Positions 19,126 to 44,516 of a stretch of 64,000 nt of DNA are shown piece by piece. Source of the DNA: Escherichia coli (lineage in GTDB: Bacteria; Pseudomonadota; Gammaproteobacteria; Enterobacterales; Enterobacteriaceae); the NCBI RefSeq assembly GCF_002854065.1, contig NZ_CP024147.1. One strand, written 5' to 3'. Position 1 is the first letter of the stretch. Every line of letters starts with the position of its first letter. The notes under the pieces were generated by a model. It was not told where the DNA came from. It searched no databases and saw only the letters and a list, made by a program, of their open reading frames with translations. Made by a program: the position numbers and the translations under genes.

Positions 19126-20337
19126 ATGAACTTATCCCTACGACGCTCTACCAGCGCCCTTCTTGCCTCGTCGTTGTTATTAACCATCGGACGCGGCGCT
19201 ACGCTGCCGTTTATGACCATTTACTTGAGTCGCCAGTACAGCCTGAGTGTCGATCTAATCGGTTATGCGATGACAATTGCGCTCACTATTGGCGTCGTTT
19301 TTAGCCTCGGTTTTGGTATCCTGGCGGATAAGTTCGACAAGAAACGCTATATGTTACTGGCAATTACCGCCTTCGCCAGCGGTTTTATTGCCATTCCTTT
19401 AGTGAATAACGTAGTGAATAACGTAGTGAATAACGTGACGCTGGTGGTGCTATTTTTTGCCCTTATTAACTGCGCCTATTCCGTTTTTGCTACCGTGCTG
19501 AAAGCCTGGTTTGCCGACAATCTTTCGTCCACCAGCAAAACGAAAATCTTCTCAATCAACTACACCATGCTCAACATTGGCTGGACCATCGGTCCGCCGC
19601 TCGGCACGCTGTTGGTGATGCAGAGCATCAATCTGCCCTTCTGGCTGGCAGCTATCTGTTCCGCGTTTCCCATGCTTTTCATTCAAATTTGGGTAAAGCG
19701 CAGCGAGAAAATCATCGCCACGGAAACAGGCAGTGTCTGGTCGCCGAAAGTTTTATTACAAGATAAAGCACTGTTGTGGTTTACCTGCTCTGGCTTTCTA
19801 GCTTCTTTTGTTAGCGGCGCATTTGCTTCATGCATTTCACAATATGTGATGGTGATTGCTGATGGGGATTTTGCCGAAAAGGTGGTCGCGGTTGTTCTTC
19901 CGGTGAATGCTGCCATGGTGGTTACGTTGCAATATTCCGTGGGCCGCCGACTTAACCCGGCTAACATCCGCGCGCTGATGACAGCAGGCACCCTCTGTTT
20001 CGTCATCGGTCTGGTCGGTTTTATTTTTTCCGGCAACAGCCTGCTATTGTGGGGTATGTCAGCTGCGGTATTTACTGTCGGTGAAATCATTTATGCGCCG
20101 GGCGAGTATATGTTGATTGACCATATTGCGCCGCCAGGAATGAAAGCCAGCTATTTTTCTGCCCAGTCTTTAGGCTGGCTTGGTGCCGCGATTAACCCAT
20201 TAGTGAGCGGCGTAGTGCTAACCAGCCTGCCGCCTTCCTCGCTGTTTATCATCTTAGCGTTGGTGATCATTGCTGCGTGGGTGCTGATGTTAAAAGGGAT
20301 TCGTGCAAAACCGTGGGGGCAGCCCGCGCTTTGTTGA
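19126..20337 (+). CDS. ydeE: MFS transporter
   Basis: 403-aa polytopic ORF; contains an in-frame 12-bp x3 tandem repeat (see repeat feature). Confidence 0.85.
   Translation: MNLSLRRSTSALLASSLLLTIGRGATLPFMTIYLSRQYSLSVDLIGYAMTIALTIGVVFSLGFGILADKFDKKRYMLLAITAFASGFIAIPLVNNVVNNVVNNVTLVVLFFALINCAYSVFATVLKAWFADNLSSTSKTKIFSINYTMLNIGWTIGPPLGTLLVMQSINLPFWLAAICSAFPMLFIQIWVKRSEKIIATETGSVWSPKVLLQDKALLWFTCSGFLASFVSGAFASCISQYVMVIADGDFAEKVVAVVLPVNAAMVVTLQYSVGRRLNPANIRALMTAGTLCFVIGLVGFIFSGNSLLLWGMSAAVFTVGEIIYAPGEYMLIDHIAPPGMKASYFSAQSLGWLGAAINPLVSGVVLTSLPPSSLFIILALVIIAAWVLMLKGIRAKPWGQPALC
19402..19437 (+). repeat. in-frame tandem repeat, 3 copies of a 12-bp unit (GTGAATAACGTA; third copy ends GTG) encoding VNNV x3 within ydeE
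   Basis: Direct reading of 19402-19437; repeat is in the ydeE reading frame. Confidence 0.9.
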
Positions 20338-20463
20338 TTTAAGTCGAACACAATAAAAATTTAATTCAGCCTTCGTTTAGGTTACCTCTGCTAATATCTT
20401 TCTCATTGAGATGAAAATTAAGGTAAGCGAGGAAACACACCACACCATAAACGGAGGCAAATA

Positions 20464-20559
20464 ATGCTGGGTAATATGAATGTTTTTATGGCAGTACTGG
20501 GAATAATTTTATTTTCTGGTTTTCTGGCCGCGTATTTCAGCCACAAATGGGATGACTAA
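20464..20559 (+). CDS. mgtS: 31-aa small inner-membrane protein (MgtS/YneM-type)
   Basis: ATG CTG GGT AAT ... GAT GAC TAA translates to MLGNMNVFMAVLGIILFSGFLAAYFSHKWDD; too short for the ORF track. Confidence 0.8.
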   Translation: MLGNMNVFMAVLGIILFSGFLAAYFSHKWDD

Positions 20560-20586
20560 TGAACGGAGATAATCCCTCACCTAACC

Positions 20587-20625
20587 GGCCCCTTGTTACA
20601 GTTGTGTACAAGGGGCCTGATTTTT
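20587..20625 (+). terminator. intrinsic terminator after mgtS
   Basis: Stem GGCCCCTTGT/ACAAGGGGCC followed by TGATTTTT. Confidence 0.7.
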
Positions 20626-20635
20626 ATGACGGCGA

Positions 20636-20738
20636 AAAAAAACCGCCAGTAAACCGGCGGTGAATGCTTGCATGGATAGATTTGTGTTTTGCTTTTACGC
20701 TAACAGGCATTTTCCTGCACTGATAACGGATCGTTGAC
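20636..20738 (-). ncRNA. mgrR: candidate PhoP-dependent small RNA (MgrR-like), ~100 nt; ends approximate
   Basis: Minus-strand intrinsic terminator at 20635-20662 (CCGCCGGTTTACTGGCGG then U8) lies ~100 nt downstream of a PhoP-box-like direct repeat at 20768-20784; no ORF; location between mgtS and dgcZ matches the known mgrR locus. Ends are inferred, not mapped. Confidence 0.5.
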
Positions 20739-20767
20739 ACAGTAGCATCAGTTTTCTCAATGAATGT

Positions 20768-20784
20768 TAAACGGAGCTTAAACT
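20768..20784 (-). promoter_or_regulatory. PhoP-box-like direct repeat (aGTTTA-N5-cGTTTA) on the minus strand, overlapping the dgcZ stop codon
   Basis: Minus-strand reading of 20784-20768 is AGTTTAAGCTCCGTTTA. Confidence 0.55.
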
Positions 20785-21668
20785 CGGTTAATCACATTTT
20801 GTTCGTCAATAAACATGCAGCGATTTCTTCCGGTTTGCTTACCCTCATACATTGCCCGGTCTGCTCTTCCAATGACCACATCCAGAGGCTCTTCAGGAAA
20901 TGCGCGACTGACACCTGCTGTCACGGTAATGTTGATATGCCCTTCGGAATGTGTGATGGCATGGTTATCGACTAACTGGCAAATTCTGACACCTGCACGA
21001 CATGCTTCTTCATCATTAGCCGCTTTAACAATAATGATAAATTCTTCCCCCCCGTAGCGATAAACCGTTTCGTAATCACGCGTCCAACTGGCTAAGTAAG
21101 TTGCCAGGGTGCGTAATACTACATCGCCGATTAAATGCCCGTAGGTATCATTAACCAATTTAAATCGGTCAATATCCAACAACATTAAATAAAGATTCAG
21201 AGGCTCAGCGTTGCGTAACTGATGATCAAAGGATTCATCAAGAACCCGGCGCCCCGGCAATCCCGTCAAAACATCCATATTGCTACGGATCGTCAGTAAA
21301 TAAATTTTGTAATCGGTTAATGCCGCAGTAAAAGAAAGTAACCCTTCCTGAAAAGCGGCGAAATGCGCGTCCTGCCAGTGATTTTCAACAATAGTCAGCA
21401 TTAATTCCCGACCACAGTTATGCATATGTTGATGGGCAGAATCCATTAGCCGAACGTAAGGTAATTCATCGTTATCGAGTGGCCCCAGATGATCAATCCA
21501 CCGACCAAACTGGCACAGTCCATAAGAATGGTTATCCGTTATTTCTGGCTTACTGGCATCTCTCGCGACCACGCTGTGAAACATACTCACCAGCCACTGG
21601 TAGTGGGCATCGATAGCCTTATTGAGATTTAACAAGATGGCATCAATTTCCGTTGTCTTCTTGATCAT
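20778..21668 (-). CDS. dgcZ: zinc-sensing diguanylate cyclase (CZB + GGDEF)
   Basis: ~296 aa from the ATG at 21668; GGEEF motif (RYGGEEF). Confidence 0.9.
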   Translation of the reverse strand: MIKKTTEIDAILLNLNKAIDAHYQWLVSMFHSVVARDASKPEITDNHSYGLCQFGRWIDHLGPLDNDELPYVRLMDSAHQHMHNCGRELMLTIVENHWQDAHFAAFQEGLLSFTAALTDYKIYLLTIRSNMDVLTGLPGRRVLDESFDHQLRNAEPLNLYLMLLDIDRFKLVNDTYGHLIGDVVLRTLATYLASWTRDYETVYRYGGEEFIIIVKAANDEEACRAGVRICQLVDNHAITHSEGHINITVTAGVSRAFPEEPLDVVIGRADRAMYEGKQTGRNRCMFIDEQNVINRV

Positions 21669-32126: not shown

Positions 32127-32702
32127 CTACGGCAGTGCTGGCCATTCAATATCCTGTGCAGTTGACGTATCAACACGGTTCAGCAACACCCGATACTTTT
32201 TCCAGGCTTCCAGCAATGAGGTTTCTTCCTCCGTTGCGATTTCCAGATCTACAGCATCCTGAAGTGGCGCAATATGCTCACTGGCTACCTGCATCAGGCT
32301 GTTTTTTGTTTCTTCCGCCTCCCGGATCCGGAACAGTTTTTCTGCTTCTGCATCTTTCACCCAGGCTGTGCCGTTCCACTTCTGAAACTCCCCTTCCGGC
32401 GATAACCAGGTAACATTTTCCGGTAACGGACCGAGTTCAGAAATAAATAACGCGTCCCCTGACGCTACGTCATAAACCGTTTTACCCCGATGGTCTTCAA
32501 CGAGATGCCACGATGCCTCATCACTGTTGAAAACAGCCACAAAGCCAGCAGGAATATCTGGCGGTGCAATATCGGTACTGTTTGCTGGCAGACCTGTATG
32601 AGGCGGAATATATGCATCACCTTCACCAATAAATTCATTAGTTCCGGCCAGCAGATTATAAATTTTTATGGTCCGTGGTTGTTCACTCATTCTGAATGCC
32701 AT
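32127..32702 (-). CDS. tfaQ: tail fibre assembly protein (Tfa)
   Basis: 191-aa ORF of the lambda Tfa/Mu U type; start overlaps the stop of the upstream tail-fibre fragment. Confidence 0.85.
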
Positions 32703-38905: not shown

Positions 38906-39098
38906 TTTTAAATCCAACGACAGACGGCTGGCATTTAAGTATTGTGAAATATTATCAAATGTAATCATCATTGATTTACAAAAGATACATTTTGCCCCGA
39001 AAGGATTCATGTCAGAAACATCAAAAGATGATGTTCTATACTGGGAACCATGACAACACGGGCATCTAAAGTGAATATGGTTTGTAATATTGTCTACC

Positions 39099-39311
39099 TC
39101 AAAGCGCCACTACATGAACAGCGGCAGGACCTTTAGGTCCGTTCTCAATACCAAATTCAACTTCCTGATTCTCAGTTAATGTTTTGAAATCGTTGCTCTG
39201 AATTGCTGAGAAATGGACAAACACATCTTTGCTGCCATCTTTCGGCGTGATGAAACCAAAACCTTTTTCAGGGTTAAACCATTTCACTAAACCAGTCATT
39301 TTGTTAGACAT
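39099..39311 (-). CDS. cspI: CspA-family cold shock protein
   Basis: 70 aa, [23 protein letters not shown]... with RNP1/RNP2 motifs. Confidence 0.9.
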
Positions 39312-39673
39312 AATTATTACCTTTTGAAGAAATTAGCCCTTGGGCAGAATGGTCCGAAAAAAAATATCAGAGAGAAAAACCAACAAGGAAATCCCAAGAG
39401 GTACAAATAATAAAATTATAACAATGACTGCTTCAGATAAATTTGTAACAAACCAGAACACCATTAACGCATGATTAACCACCCATAGCAAGGATTACTT
39501 TTGTAAAGAAAAACACAGCAATGAAAGAATAGCTTTATTTATTAATAAAACGTGTCATTCTGATTAAGACCTTTTATCTTACCCTTAAGATTTCAGGAAT
39601 TTTGGCTCATGGAAGAGTCCTTTTTATTTAAATTTTACATTCCGCGATGTAAATGTTCCGATTTAATATTACC

Positions 39674-41703: not shown

Positions 41704-41983
41704 AGATTGTGGTGCTTTTTGTGGGAGTCATCCACTTACGCACTTTGTTTTGCCATGCCAGCAGTTAGCTTCTGCTGTAAAACTATTCATGCCGCAAACC
41801 TGCACTTCACCACAATGGTTAGCATACTTTTCCTGATTAAGATTTTGCCAAATATGCTGGCCATTGTTTCATGTATTGGACCTCCTTAATTTTTATTAAA
41901 GAAATCCAATATTCACTACTCTGTCCGTATCTCTACTCAGGCATCAGCCTTCTTCGTTATCGTATACAGACGAGCGATGAATT

Positions 41984-42199
41984 TTAATCAGTAATGATGA
42001 CATTTGCTGCTGCAGGACCTTTAGCACCACTCTCTATAGAGAAGGTAACCTTTTGACCTTCAAATAAGGTTCGATAATTATCATTCTGAATCGCAGAAAA
42101 ATGCACAAACACATCTTTACTACCATCAACAGGAGAAATAAAGCCGAAACCTTTATCAGCGTTAAACCATTTTACTAAACCAGTCATTTTATTTGACAT
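41984..42199 (-). CDS. cspB: CspA-family cold shock protein
   Basis: 71 aa, [23 protein letters not shown]... Confidence 0.9.
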
Positions 42200-42490
42200 T
42201 CTACATTCCTTAACTTGAGCCTTTCGGCATAAATGGTTTGCATAACAGAAACGACTTCGTACTTAATTGGAGAGACTCAAAGAAGGAATAAGTGAATAAC
42301 ACCTGAAATGAGAACTGCTTTAGTAAACTACTTCGTATATCGTCTGTTCTTCAAACCGACGCAGTCATTAACTCATAGTTGAACATATGAAGCAATGTTT
42401 ATTTTAGACATCCAGCCACCTTCAACCCTATCAAAAAAGTAGTTTTCTCCAGGAACGTGTGTATGGTGCACCAGGTTATCAGTATTAAGG

Positions 42491-42874: not shown

Positions 42875-44516
<1,642 letters not shown>

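What the first reader, a model, noticed from the sequence alone, without database searches (positions are those of the whole stretch)
20464..20784. Compact PhoP-type small-gene locus: 31-aa membrane protein gene, a terminator-defined candidate sRNA, and a PhoP-box-like repeat overlapping the dgcZ stop codon
Between ydeE and dgcZ there is a 31-codon ORF (MLGNMNVFMAVLGIILFSGFLAAYFSHKWDD) with its own terminator. On the opposite strand a strong intrinsic terminator (20635-20662) lies ~100 nt downstream of a direct repeat AGTTTA-N5-CGTTTA (20768-20784), which overlaps the last codons and stop of dgcZ. This matches the known mgtS/mgrR arrangement, but the sRNA ends are inferred, and I could not find a convincing PhoP box upstream of the small ORF.
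Basis: partly seen in the sequence, partly recalled or inferred. Interest (0 to 1): 0.35.

Follow-up and report, generated by a model that had tools for sequence, protein, structure and literature searches.

The report
Known E. coli mgtS-mgtT/mgrR locus
This is the already well-studied low-magnesium (PhoP-controlled) locus of E. coli, which holds the 31-residue membrane protein MgtS, the overlapping small protein MgtT and the convergent small RNA MgrR.

Summary
The locus is the annotated E. coli ydeE / mgtS-mgtT / mgrR / dgcZ region: 100% identical to several E. coli genomes, and 5 SNPs with no indels over 551 bp versus K-12.

Mapping the K-12 annotation onto the window gives:
- mgtS 20464-20559 (+)
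- MgrR 20732-20635 (-), 98 nt
- dgcZ stop codon 20780-20778

The Rfam model for MgrR (RF01407) scores 281.9 bits. The Pfam and NCBIfam MgtS and Pfam MgtT models match far above their cut-offs.

The repeat AGTTTA-N5-CGTTTA (20784-20768) is real and overlaps the dgcZ stop. The annotated MgrR 5' end lies 36 nt downstream of it.

Comparison of 13 enterobacterial loci changes the promoter picture. The conserved element is (C/T)GTTTA-N5-NATTG(A/G) (20773-20757), exactly 12 nt upstream of a TAnnnT -10 hexamer. That is the canonical PhoP class-II layout.

Verdict: already known, low interest.

Side notes:
- The mgtT sequence shows no sign of selection on its amino-acid sequence and is largely built from two terminator hairpins.
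- dgcZ has no terminator of its own before mgrR.

The parts
20363..20379 (+). Predicted PhoP box of the mgtS promoter: AATTCA-GCCTT-CGTTTA. The distal half-site is weak (3/6) and the proximal one good (5/6).
   Evidence: RRTTMA-N5-YGTTTA lies 12 nt upstream of the -10 in most of the 13 mgtS-bearing loci, with a variant proximal hexamer in three. The derived pattern occurs once in the 64-kb window against 0.03 expected. The 12-nt spacing is architecture I of Zwir 2012 (PMC3335776). PhoP binding was not tested here.
20392..20397 (+). mgtS -10 hexamer TAATAT. The transcription start is inferred at about 20404-20405, giving a 5'UTR of about 60 nt.
   Evidence: Sequence and conservation of TAnTAT-like hexamers. 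The start site is an inference. It is consistent with the published yneM-lacZ fusion that reaches +91 (PMC3536696).
20464..20559 (+). mgtS (yneM), a 31-aa single-pass membrane protein.
   Evidence: ORF. Pfam PF22865 88.2 bits against a cut-off of 27, and NCBIfam NF033842 equivalog 80.6 bits against 35. Protein identical to K-12 b4599, with one synonymous SNP.
20559..20663 (+). mgtT, a 34-aa ORF whose start overlaps the mgtS stop in TAATGA.
   Evidence: ORF. K-12 b4775. Pfam PF23498 96.3 bits. Described as an mgtS-mgtT operon, PhoQP-dependent and validated by epitope tagging, with no deletion or overexpression phenotype (PMC11429745).
20587..20627 (+). Hairpin after mgtS (stem 20587-20617) plus UGAUUUUUAU. 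It is a probable leaky intrinsic terminator and lies inside the mgtT ORF (codons 10-20).
   Evidence: Fold -22.6 kcal/mol, z = -3.6. The stem GGCCCCTTG/CAAGGGGCC is conserved, with variable loop-proximal bases, in most of the loci. That it terminates transcription is inferred.
20635..20732 (-). mgrR, the 98-nt Hfq-dependent small RNA MgrR.
   Evidence: K-12 ncRNA b4698 maps exactly and is 97/98 identical, with C instead of T at +4. Rfam RF01407 STnc560 scores 281.9 bits against a gathering score of 55 over 20553-20766. Fold -25.9 kcal/mol, z = -2.9, with 5' and 3' stem-loops and an open centre, as found by structure probing (PMC6239178).
20665..20678 (-). MgrR target-pairing region UAUCCAUGCAAGCA (nt 55-68).
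   Evidence: The pairing region is given as U55-A68 in PMC6239178. CTATCCATGCAAGC is invariant in all 12 aligned species.
20681..20696 (-). A-rich (ARN)n Hfq distal-face motif of MgrR (nt 37-52).
   Evidence: Sequence. Described as an (ARN)5 motif in PMC6239178.
20635..20661 (-). MgrR intrinsic terminator: an 8-bp stem, loop UUUA and U8.
   Evidence: Terminator scan. Fold -13.7 kcal/mol. The helix is 96.9% paired across 12 species, with 2 covarying pairs.
20739..20744 (-). mgrR -10 hexamer TACTGT, placed 6 nt before the annotated +1.
   Evidence: Sequence. A TAnnnT hexamer sits at the same offset in 12 of 13 loci.
20757..20773 (-). Conserved PhoP box of mgrR: CGTTTA-ACATT-CATTGA, 12 nt upstream of the -10, covering -41 to -25.
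   Evidence: (C/T)GTTTA-N5-NATTG(A/G)-N12-TAnnnT is present in 12 of the 13 loci and with a CATGAT -10 in the thirteenth, across Escherichia, Salmonella, Citrobacter and other Enterobacteriaceae. It occurs once in the window against 0.01 expected. The layout is architecture I (PMC3335776). PhoP binding was not tested here.
20779..20784 (-). It covers the last dgcZ codons and the first two bases of the stop.
   Evidence: It matches the consensus 5/6 only in E. coli, E. whittamii and Escherichia sp. MOD1. It matches 4/6 in Salmonella and Citrobacter and 0-2/6 elsewhere. Together with 20773-20768 it forms a box 23 nt from the -10, the architecture III spacing.
20778..21668 (-). dgcZ (ydeH), a zinc-sensing diguanylate cyclase. 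Its stop codon is 45 nt upstream of MgrR +1 on the same strand.
   Evidence: NCBIfam NF007380 518.7 bits, plus GGDEF and CZB domains. K-12 b1535. No intrinsic terminator was found between the stop and mgrR.

Best explanation
The region is the E. coli PhoP/PhoQ-controlled mgtS-mgtT / mgrR locus.

Under low Mg2+, phosphorylated PhoP binds a direct-repeat box that takes the place of the -35 element in two convergent promoters.

On the + strand, the box at 20363-20379 drives the mgtS-mgtT mRNA. MgtS is a 31-aa inner-membrane protein that, according to the literature, stabilises the MgtA Mg2+ importer and modulates PitA. MgtT is a 34-aa protein translated from an ATGA-overlapping start.

On the - strand, the box at 20773-20757 drives the 98-nt RNA MgrR, possibly helped in Escherichia by a third in-phase hexamer at 20784-20779 inside the dgcZ stop region. 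MgrR binds Hfq through its A-rich stretch and its U8 terminator tail. It uses the invariant single-stranded seed UAUCCAUGCAAGCA to pair with targets such as eptB, ygdQ and pitA.

The two transcripts converge. mgtT extends 29 nt into the MgrR 3' end, so read-through mgtS-mgtT mRNA and MgrR can form a duplex.

Shown here: gene identities, coordinates, structures, and conservation of the boxes and their spacing. Taken from the literature: PhoP dependence, Hfq dependence, targets and MgtS function. Inferred: which hexamer pair PhoP occupies, the mgtS start site, and duplex formation.
For: - Identity with annotated E. coli genomes: 5409 of 20,395 records cover at least 80% of the query, and the features under the match are mgtS, mgtT, dgcZ and ydeE.
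- K-12 coordinates map without indels.
- Rfam RF01407 scores 281.9 bits.
- Pfam MgtS-like and MgtT, and the NCBIfam MgtS equivalog, all match.
- Terminator scan and folds.
- mgrR lies convergent with mgtS in every enterobacterial locus fetched, whatever the flanking genes.
- PhoP-box hexamers and the 12-nt spacing to the -10 are conserved in both promoters. This matches architecture I of PhoP promoters (PMC3335776).
- The seed is invariant and the terminator covaries.
- Literature on PhoP activation and convergent transcription.
- An RNase III-dependent site is reported at K-12 1622816, which is window 20634 and adjacent to the MgrR 3' end (PMC5371410).
Against: - Nothing contradicts the identification.
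- The conserved downstream half-site CATTGA matches the strict (T/G)GTTTA consensus at only 3/6.
- The original mapping paper (Moon & Gottesman 2009) could not be read. I therefore cannot say which register was published or footprinted.
- The mgtS distal half-site is weak (3/6).
Confidence: 0.97

Rival explanations
1. The functional PhoP site of mgrR is the first reader's box AGTTTA-N5-CGTTTA (20784-20768). It would act from two helical turns upstream of the -10, as a class I / architecture III promoter like rstA. The downstream CATTGA hexamer would be irrelevant.
For: - It is closest to the strict consensus: 5/6 plus 5/6, 2 mismatches.
- Its 23-nt distance to the -10 equals that of the rstA promoter (PMC3335776).
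- It is identical in 13 of 14 sampled E. coli sequences.
Against: - The upstream hexamer is not conserved outside Escherichia. It scores 0-2/6 in six loci that still carry mgrR.
- In contrast, CGTTTA-N5-NATTGA-N12-TAnnnT is present in 12 of 13 loci, and with a variant -10 in the thirteenth.
- In E. albertii an 11-bp insertion displaces that hexamer.
- In E. coli the GTTTA letters are also forced by the dgcZ Val-stop codons GTT TAA.
Confidence: 0.2
2. PhoP uses all three in-phase hexamers in E. coli (20784-20779, 20773-20768, 20762-20757). This could be through two overlapping dimer registers or through cooperative binding. The Escherichia-specific third hexamer would boost or retune mgrR expression.
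For: - The three hexamers repeat with an exact 11-bp period.
- A second upstream PhoP box increases output in architecture II and IV promoters (PMC3335776).
Against: - No binding data are available.
- The third hexamer could be a by-product of the dgcZ C-terminal codons.
- Overlapping registers cannot be occupied by two dimers at once.
Confidence: 0.25
3. The small ORF and hairpins are chance features of an intergenic region, and no dedicated genes exist here.
For: Sixty-two ORFs of at least 20 codons lie in a 4-kb stretch, so a 31-codon ORF alone means little.
Against: - Curated family models match at E 2e-25 and 6e-28.
- The covariance model matches at E 1.7e-65.
- The region is annotated in K-12.
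- mgtS changes are mostly synonymous, for example 8 synonymous to 1 non-synonymous versus Citrobacter.
Confidence: 0.01

Closest known systems
E. coli K-12 mgtS (yneM, b4599) / mgtT (b4775) / mgrR (b4698) locus between ydeE and dgcZ
   Same: Same genes, order, strands and spacing. There are 5 SNPs in 551 bp and no indels. The MgtS and MgtT proteins are identical, and MgrR is 97/98 identical.
   Different: One synonymous change in mgtS (GCA instead of GCC). MgrR has C instead of T at +4, and C is the commoner E. coli allele, found in 10 of the 14 sequences sampled. The neighbouring ydeE carries a 24-bp in-frame repeat expansion.
Rfam RF01407 STnc560 (Salmonella Hfq-bound RNA, the MgrR family)
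   Same: Full-length match to the model, positions 1-214, 281.9 bits.
   Different: The Rfam model is 214 nt. It includes 34 nt of promoter upstream of the E. coli +1, and downstream it covers the antisense of the mgtS hairpin and the mgtS stop. The annotated E. coli RNA is only the central 98 nt.
Architecture I PhoP-activated promoters (mgtA, phoP, slyB, pmrD; Zwir et al. 2012, PMC3335776)
   Same: A single direct-orientation box sits 12 nt upstream of the -10 and no -35 element is present. The sigma-70 consensus scan found no promoter at either site.
   Different: One half-site in each box is degenerate: CATTGA in mgrR and AATTCA in mgtS. E. coli mgrR has an additional in-phase hexamer one turn upstream.
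3'UTR-type sRNAs with their own promoter at the end of an upstream ORF (for example DapZ and MicL; recalled from my own knowledge)
   Same: In E. coli the mgrR promoter overlaps the dgcZ stop codon. dgcZ has no separate terminator, so the two would share the MgrR terminator.
   Different: In Salmonella and most other genera mgrR is free-standing, with no dgcZ upstream. The arrangement in E. coli is therefore secondary, and co-transcription has not been demonstrated.

Membership tests
MgtS small protein (Pfam PF22865, NCBIfam NF033842 equivalog) | Sequence scores above the curated family cut-off over the full length of 31 residues | tested here: met
   88.2 bits against 27. 80.6 bits against 35. 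Identical to K-12 MgtS.
MgtS small protein (Pfam PF22865, NCBIfam NF033842 equivalog) | PhoP-dependent promoter | tested here: inconclusive
   A conserved box-like element lies at the canonical 12-nt spacing, and published lacZ-fusion data exist for K-12 (PMC3536696; PMC11429745). Regulation in this strain cannot be measured with these tools.
MgtS small protein (Pfam PF22865, NCBIfam NF033842 equivalog) | Membrane insertion and stabilisation of MgtA, and interaction with PitA | not testable with these tools
   Taken from the literature only (bioRxiv 10.1101/2021.06.30.450655).
MgrR sRNA (Rfam RF01407) | Covariance-model score above the gathering threshold | tested here: met
   281.9 bits against 55, E 1.7e-65.
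MgrR sRNA (Rfam RF01407) | Hfq class II anatomy: an internal ARN-rich stretch, a single-stranded seed, and a Rho-independent terminator with a long U tail | tested here: met
   Fold. Terminator. Invariant seed and covarying terminator. This matches the probing data in PMC6239178.
MgrR sRNA (Rfam RF01407) | Convergent linkage to mgtS | tested here: met
   Present in the window and in all 16 mgtS-bearing loci scanned from other taxa. One Escherichia strain has lost mgtS but kept mgrR.
MgrR sRNA (Rfam RF01407) | PhoP/PhoQ- and Hfq-dependent accumulation, and repression of eptB and ygdQ | not testable with these tools
   Literature only (PMC6239178; PMC3536696).
PhoP box (T/G)GTTTA-N5-(T/G)GTTTA | Direct hexamer repeat with 5-nt spacer and at most 2 mismatches to the consensus | tested here: met
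The criterion is the one quoted in PMC7667037. The conserved register CGTTTA-ACATT-CATTGA has 4 mismatches and fails this strict criterion.
PhoP box (T/G)GTTTA-N5-(T/G)GTTTA | Position replacing the -35 element, 12 nt upstream of the -10 (architecture I) | tested here: met
Met by the conserved register 20773-20757 and by the mgtS box 20363-20379.
PhoP box (T/G)GTTTA-N5-(T/G)GTTTA | Physical binding of phosphorylated PhoP | not testable with these tools
   Needs a footprint, EMSA or ChIP.
MgtT small protein (Pfam PF23498) | Sequence above the family cut-off | tested here: met
   96.3 bits against 27. Identical to K-12 b4775.
MgtT small protein (Pfam PF23498) | Conservation as a protein (purifying selection) across species | tested here: not met
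   ORF length ranges from 8 to 65 codons, and the C-termini are unrelated outside E. coli and E. albertii. Substitutions are mostly non-synonymous: 4:11, 2:11, 1:4 and 0:3 synonymous to non-synonymous.

The most novel reading that the evidence does not exclude
Two readings remain open that I did not find in the literature I could search.

(i) In Escherichia, dgcZ has no terminator of its own. dgcZ mRNA would then end at the MgrR terminator and carry the whole MgrR sequence, seed included, as its 3'UTR. The mgrR promoter, including a lineage-specific third PhoP hexamer, is built partly from the dgcZ Val-stop codons. This would link c-di-GMP and zinc signalling to the PhoP sRNA output.

(ii) MgtT is not a protein under sequence selection. 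It would be an ORF that exists because two conserved terminator hairpins happen to be open in one frame. What is actually conserved is only the ATGA-coupled start plus about 6 codons. That mini-ORF might serve to modulate termination or mgtS mRNA stability by bringing ribosomes into the hairpin.
Probability: 0.3. Interest if true: 0.4.

Novelty: already known. Interest (0 to 1): 0.08.

Why it matters
The locus is a textbook example of a two-component system (PhoQ/PhoP) that deploys a small protein and a small RNA side by side to raise intracellular Mg2+ and remodel LPS. Finding it here only confirms that the window is an ordinary E. coli chromosome segment and that the first-stage reader can recognise such loci from raw sequence. 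The modest added value is comparative:

- the register of the conserved PhoP box in the mgrR promoter;
- the location of the mgtS PhoP box;
- the observation that mgtT behaves evolutionarily like a by-product of overlapping RNA structures.

Tried and rejected
- The original mapping papers were not in the library. These were Moon & Gottesman 2009 (PMC2841474), Wang 2017 (PMC5465934), Yin 2019 (PMC6351178) and Weaver 2019 (PMC6401488). The published PhoP-box register and TSS mapping could therefore not be quoted.
- A search for 'mgrR promoter' found nothing.
- A 20-nt exact pattern from the MgrR centre, scanned against one genome per species, returned only Escherichia plus four chance hits.
- The search for homologous proteins refuses queries under 40 aa.
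- Other genera were reached instead through MgtS sequence variants: cluster members, an exhaustive HMMER search and exact-sequence contig look-ups.
- The RNAalifold consensus recovered only the terminator, because the 5' hairpin is misaligned between clades. A manual structure gave 72.7% pairing for that helix.
- The very divergent locus L034 (Rfam 54.4 bits, just under the gathering score) did not fit the promoter pattern and was left out.
- The chance-ORF reading was considered and rejected (see rival explanations).

Full report
**Observation**

- The 31-codon ORF MLGNMNVFMAVLGIILFSGFLAAYFSHKWDD is at 20464-20559 (+).
- A 13-bp hairpin follows it (20587-20617; -22.6 kcal/mol, z = -3.6), then UGAUUUUUAU.
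- On the - strand there is a classical intrinsic terminator: stem 20661-20642, loop UUUA, and eight U ending at 20635 (-13.7 kcal/mol).
- On the - strand the sequence AGTTTA-AGCTC-CGTTTA occupies 20784-20768. It overlaps the last codons of dgcZ (…AAC CGA GTT TAA, stop at 20780-20778).
- The core GTTTA-N6-GTTTA occurs once in the 64-kb window against 0.11 expected. Ten of 100 shuffles have at least one, so the repeat by itself is only mildly improbable. With one mismatch allowed it is not enriched: 6 found against 4.3 expected.

**Identity**

- The 551-bp region 20300-20850 is 100% identical to several E. coli chromosomes and is present in 5416 of 5426 complete E. coli genomes. The annotated features under the match are YdeE, MgtS, MgtT and DgcZ.
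- Against K-12 MG1655 there are 5 substitutions and no indels, so the K-12 annotation transfers directly:
  - mgtS (b4599) at 20464-20559
  - mgtT (b4775) at 20559-20663
  - the ncRNA mgrR (b4698) at 20635-20732 on the - strand
  - dgcZ (b1535) at 20778-21668
- The Rfam family for this RNA (RF01407, STnc560) matches at 281.9 bits, E 1.7e-65, over 20553-20766.
- MgtS matches Pfam PF22865 (88.2 bits) and the NCBIfam equivalog NF033842 (80.6 bits).
- The 34-residue ORF matches Pfam PF23498 MgtT (96.3 bits).
- DgcZ and YdeE match their equivalog models.

The window's MgrR differs from K-12 at one base (C rather than T at +4). C is the commoner allele among 14 sampled E. coli sequences.

**What the literature says**

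- mgrR and yneM (mgtS) are directly activated by PhoP, and this is measured with promoter-lacZ fusions (PMC3536696).
[quoted passage not shown] MgtS raises MgtA levels. MgrR carries an ARN Hfq motif, a seed and a poly-U terminator (bioRxiv 10.1101/2021.06.30.450655).
- MgrR is 98 nt long, with 5' and 3' stem-loops and an unstructured centre. That centre holds an (ARN)5 motif and the pairing region U55-A68 (PMC6239178).
- mgtT overlaps mgtS out of frame in one operon. It is PhoQP-dependent and was validated by epitope tagging. It is not membrane-associated and shows no deletion or overexpression phenotype (PMC11429745).

My fold of 20732-20635 reproduces the published architecture. U55-A68 maps to 20678-20665.

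**Comparative analysis**

I collected loci from the following sources:
- three other Escherichia species
- Citrobacter
- Salmonella (MgtS begins MLGSINLF…)
- several other Enterobacteriaceae with different flanking genes

In every one the Rfam MgrR model hits convergent to, and immediately downstream of, mgtS. This holds even where dgcZ is absent, so the mgtS/mgrR pair is the conserved unit. The dgcZ overlap is a feature of Escherichia, and more loosely of Citrobacter.

Across 12 species the seed CTATCCATGCAAGC is invariant. The terminator helix is 96.9% paired with two covarying pairs. The 5' hairpin is 72.7% paired, with some double changes on an imperfect alignment.

**The mgrR promoter**

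When 13 loci are anchored on the invariant GTTTA, all show the hexamer pair (C/T)GTTTA - N5 - NATTG(A/G) followed by a 12-nt spacer. The -10 after the spacer is TAnnnT in 12 loci and CATGAT in L036. In the window this is CGTTTA-ACATT-CATTGA (20773-20757), then 12 nt, then TACTGT (20744-20739), then 6 nt, then +1 G (20732).

This is the layout that Zwir et al. call architecture I: a single direct PhoP box 12 nt upstream of the -10, overlapping the -35 position, as in mgtA, phoP, slyB and pmrD (PMC3335776). The composite pattern occurs once in the window against 0.01 expected. That pattern was derived from the alignment, so the count is descriptive only.

- 5/6 in E. coli, E. whittamii and Escherichia sp. 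MOD1
- 4/6 in Salmonella and Citrobacter
- 0-2/6 in six other loci

In E. albertii it is displaced by an 11-bp insertion.

E. coli therefore has three in-phase hexamers. The deeply conserved pair is the downstream one, while the pair closest to the strict consensus is the upstream one. Which pair PhoP occupies cannot be decided here. I favour the conserved register, at about 0.55-0.6, with simultaneous or alternative use of the third hexamer as the next option.

**The mgtS promoter**

The alignment of 13 upstream regions shows RRTTMA-N5-YGTTTA exactly 12 nt upstream of a TAnTAT-type -10 in most of them; the proximal hexamer is a variant in three loci.

In the window this is AATTCA-GCCTT-CGTTTA (20363-20379), then 12 nt, then TAATAT (20392-20397). 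That predicts a start near 20404-20405 and a 5'UTR of about 60 nt. The distal half-site is weak in this strain (3/6), which explains why it was overlooked. The pattern is unique in the window, with 0.03 expected.

The sigma-70 consensus scan finds no -35/-10 promoter at either site, as expected for activator-dependent promoters.

**mgtT and the convergent overlap**

mgtT starts at the A of the mgtS stop (TAATGA). It runs through the mgtS hairpin: codons 9-20, NRPLVTVVYKGP, are essentially the hairpin. It ends at 20663, and its last ten codons are the antisense of the MgrR terminator.

Full-length translation therefore needs transcription through the first hairpin, and such transcripts overlap MgrR by at least 29 nt. 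An RNase III-dependent site reported at K-12 1622816 maps to window 20634, next to the MgrR 3' end. It was attributed to sense/antisense pairing (PMC5371410).

Across species the ATGA junction and the first six codons (MN-G/D/T/S-DNP) are widely conserved, but the ORF is not:
- 34 codons in E. coli and E. albertii
- 30 codons, frameshifted, in E. whittamii
- 41 codons in Salmonella
- 34 or 65 codons, with unrelated C-termini, in Citrobacter
- 8 codons in five other loci

Substitutions in codons 1-20 are mostly non-synonymous, with synonymous to non-synonymous counts of 0:3, 1:4, 4:11 and 2:11. In mgtS they are mostly synonymous (8:1 versus Citrobacter, 13:8 versus Salmonella). The conserved letters coincide with the hairpin stems. 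The counts are small and untested statistically, but they give no sign of selection on the MgtT amino-acid sequence.

**dgcZ**

dgcZ and mgrR are on the same strand, 45 nt apart. The scan finds no intrinsic terminator between them. By inference, dgcZ transcripts that are not stopped by Rho end at the MgrR terminator and contain MgrR. I found no paper that discusses this.

**Verdict**

The locus is already known in detail. Interest is low. The corrections are the missed mgtT gene, the location of the mgtS PhoP box, and the register of the conserved mgrR PhoP box.

Noticed in passing
window 19400-19436 (inside ydeE, 19126-20337 +): A 12-bp unit TAGTGAATAACG is present in 3.1 tandem copies, where K-12 has one. 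This gives an in-frame 8-residue expansion (…NNVVNNVVNNV…), so YdeE is 403 aa instead of 395.
   Followed up: partly
window 20559-20663 (+): mgtT looks evolutionarily unstable. The ORF is 8 to 65 codons long in other species, and its substitutions are mostly non-synonymous. Its conserved letters coincide with the mgtS hairpin and the antisense of the MgrR terminator. Even so, the ATGA overlap and the first ~18 nt (ATGAAyGGnGAyAATCCC) are conserved in distant genera where the ORF is only 8 codons. The reason is unexplained.
   Followed up: partly
window 20732-20780 (-): There is no intrinsic terminator between the dgcZ stop and MgrR +1. dgcZ transcripts probably end at the MgrR terminator and would carry MgrR as a 3'UTR. 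I found nothing in the searchable literature on this.
   Followed up: partly
L009:10200-10600 (Escherichia sp. MOD1-EC7003): This strain lacks ydeE and mgtS. The eamA start abuts a remnant of the mgtS hairpin, yet mgrR and its promoter are kept (Rfam 180.6 bits).
   Followed up: partly
hits H5 and H6 (E. coli NCTC10444 and KV7); hit H1 / L001:1587-2284: Some E. coli strains carry an IS1 inside the 551-bp mgtS/mgrR region. The strain that is 100% identical to the window across this region (CUWW06) has an IS1B inserted in ydeE, which the window does not have.
   Followed up: no
window 32161-32359 (-), 39072-39457 (-), 41968-42360 (-), 43327-43449 (+): Other Rfam matches above the gathering score in the window are IS009, two cspA-thermoregulator-like 5'UTRs, and the isrC Hfq-binding RNA.
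   Followed up: no
L003:8700-8810 (E. albertii): An 11-bp insertion, one helical turn, lies just after the dgcZ stop. It keeps the stop-codon GTTTAA in phase with the mgrR PhoP hexamers, giving four in-phase hexamer-like units.
   Followed up: no
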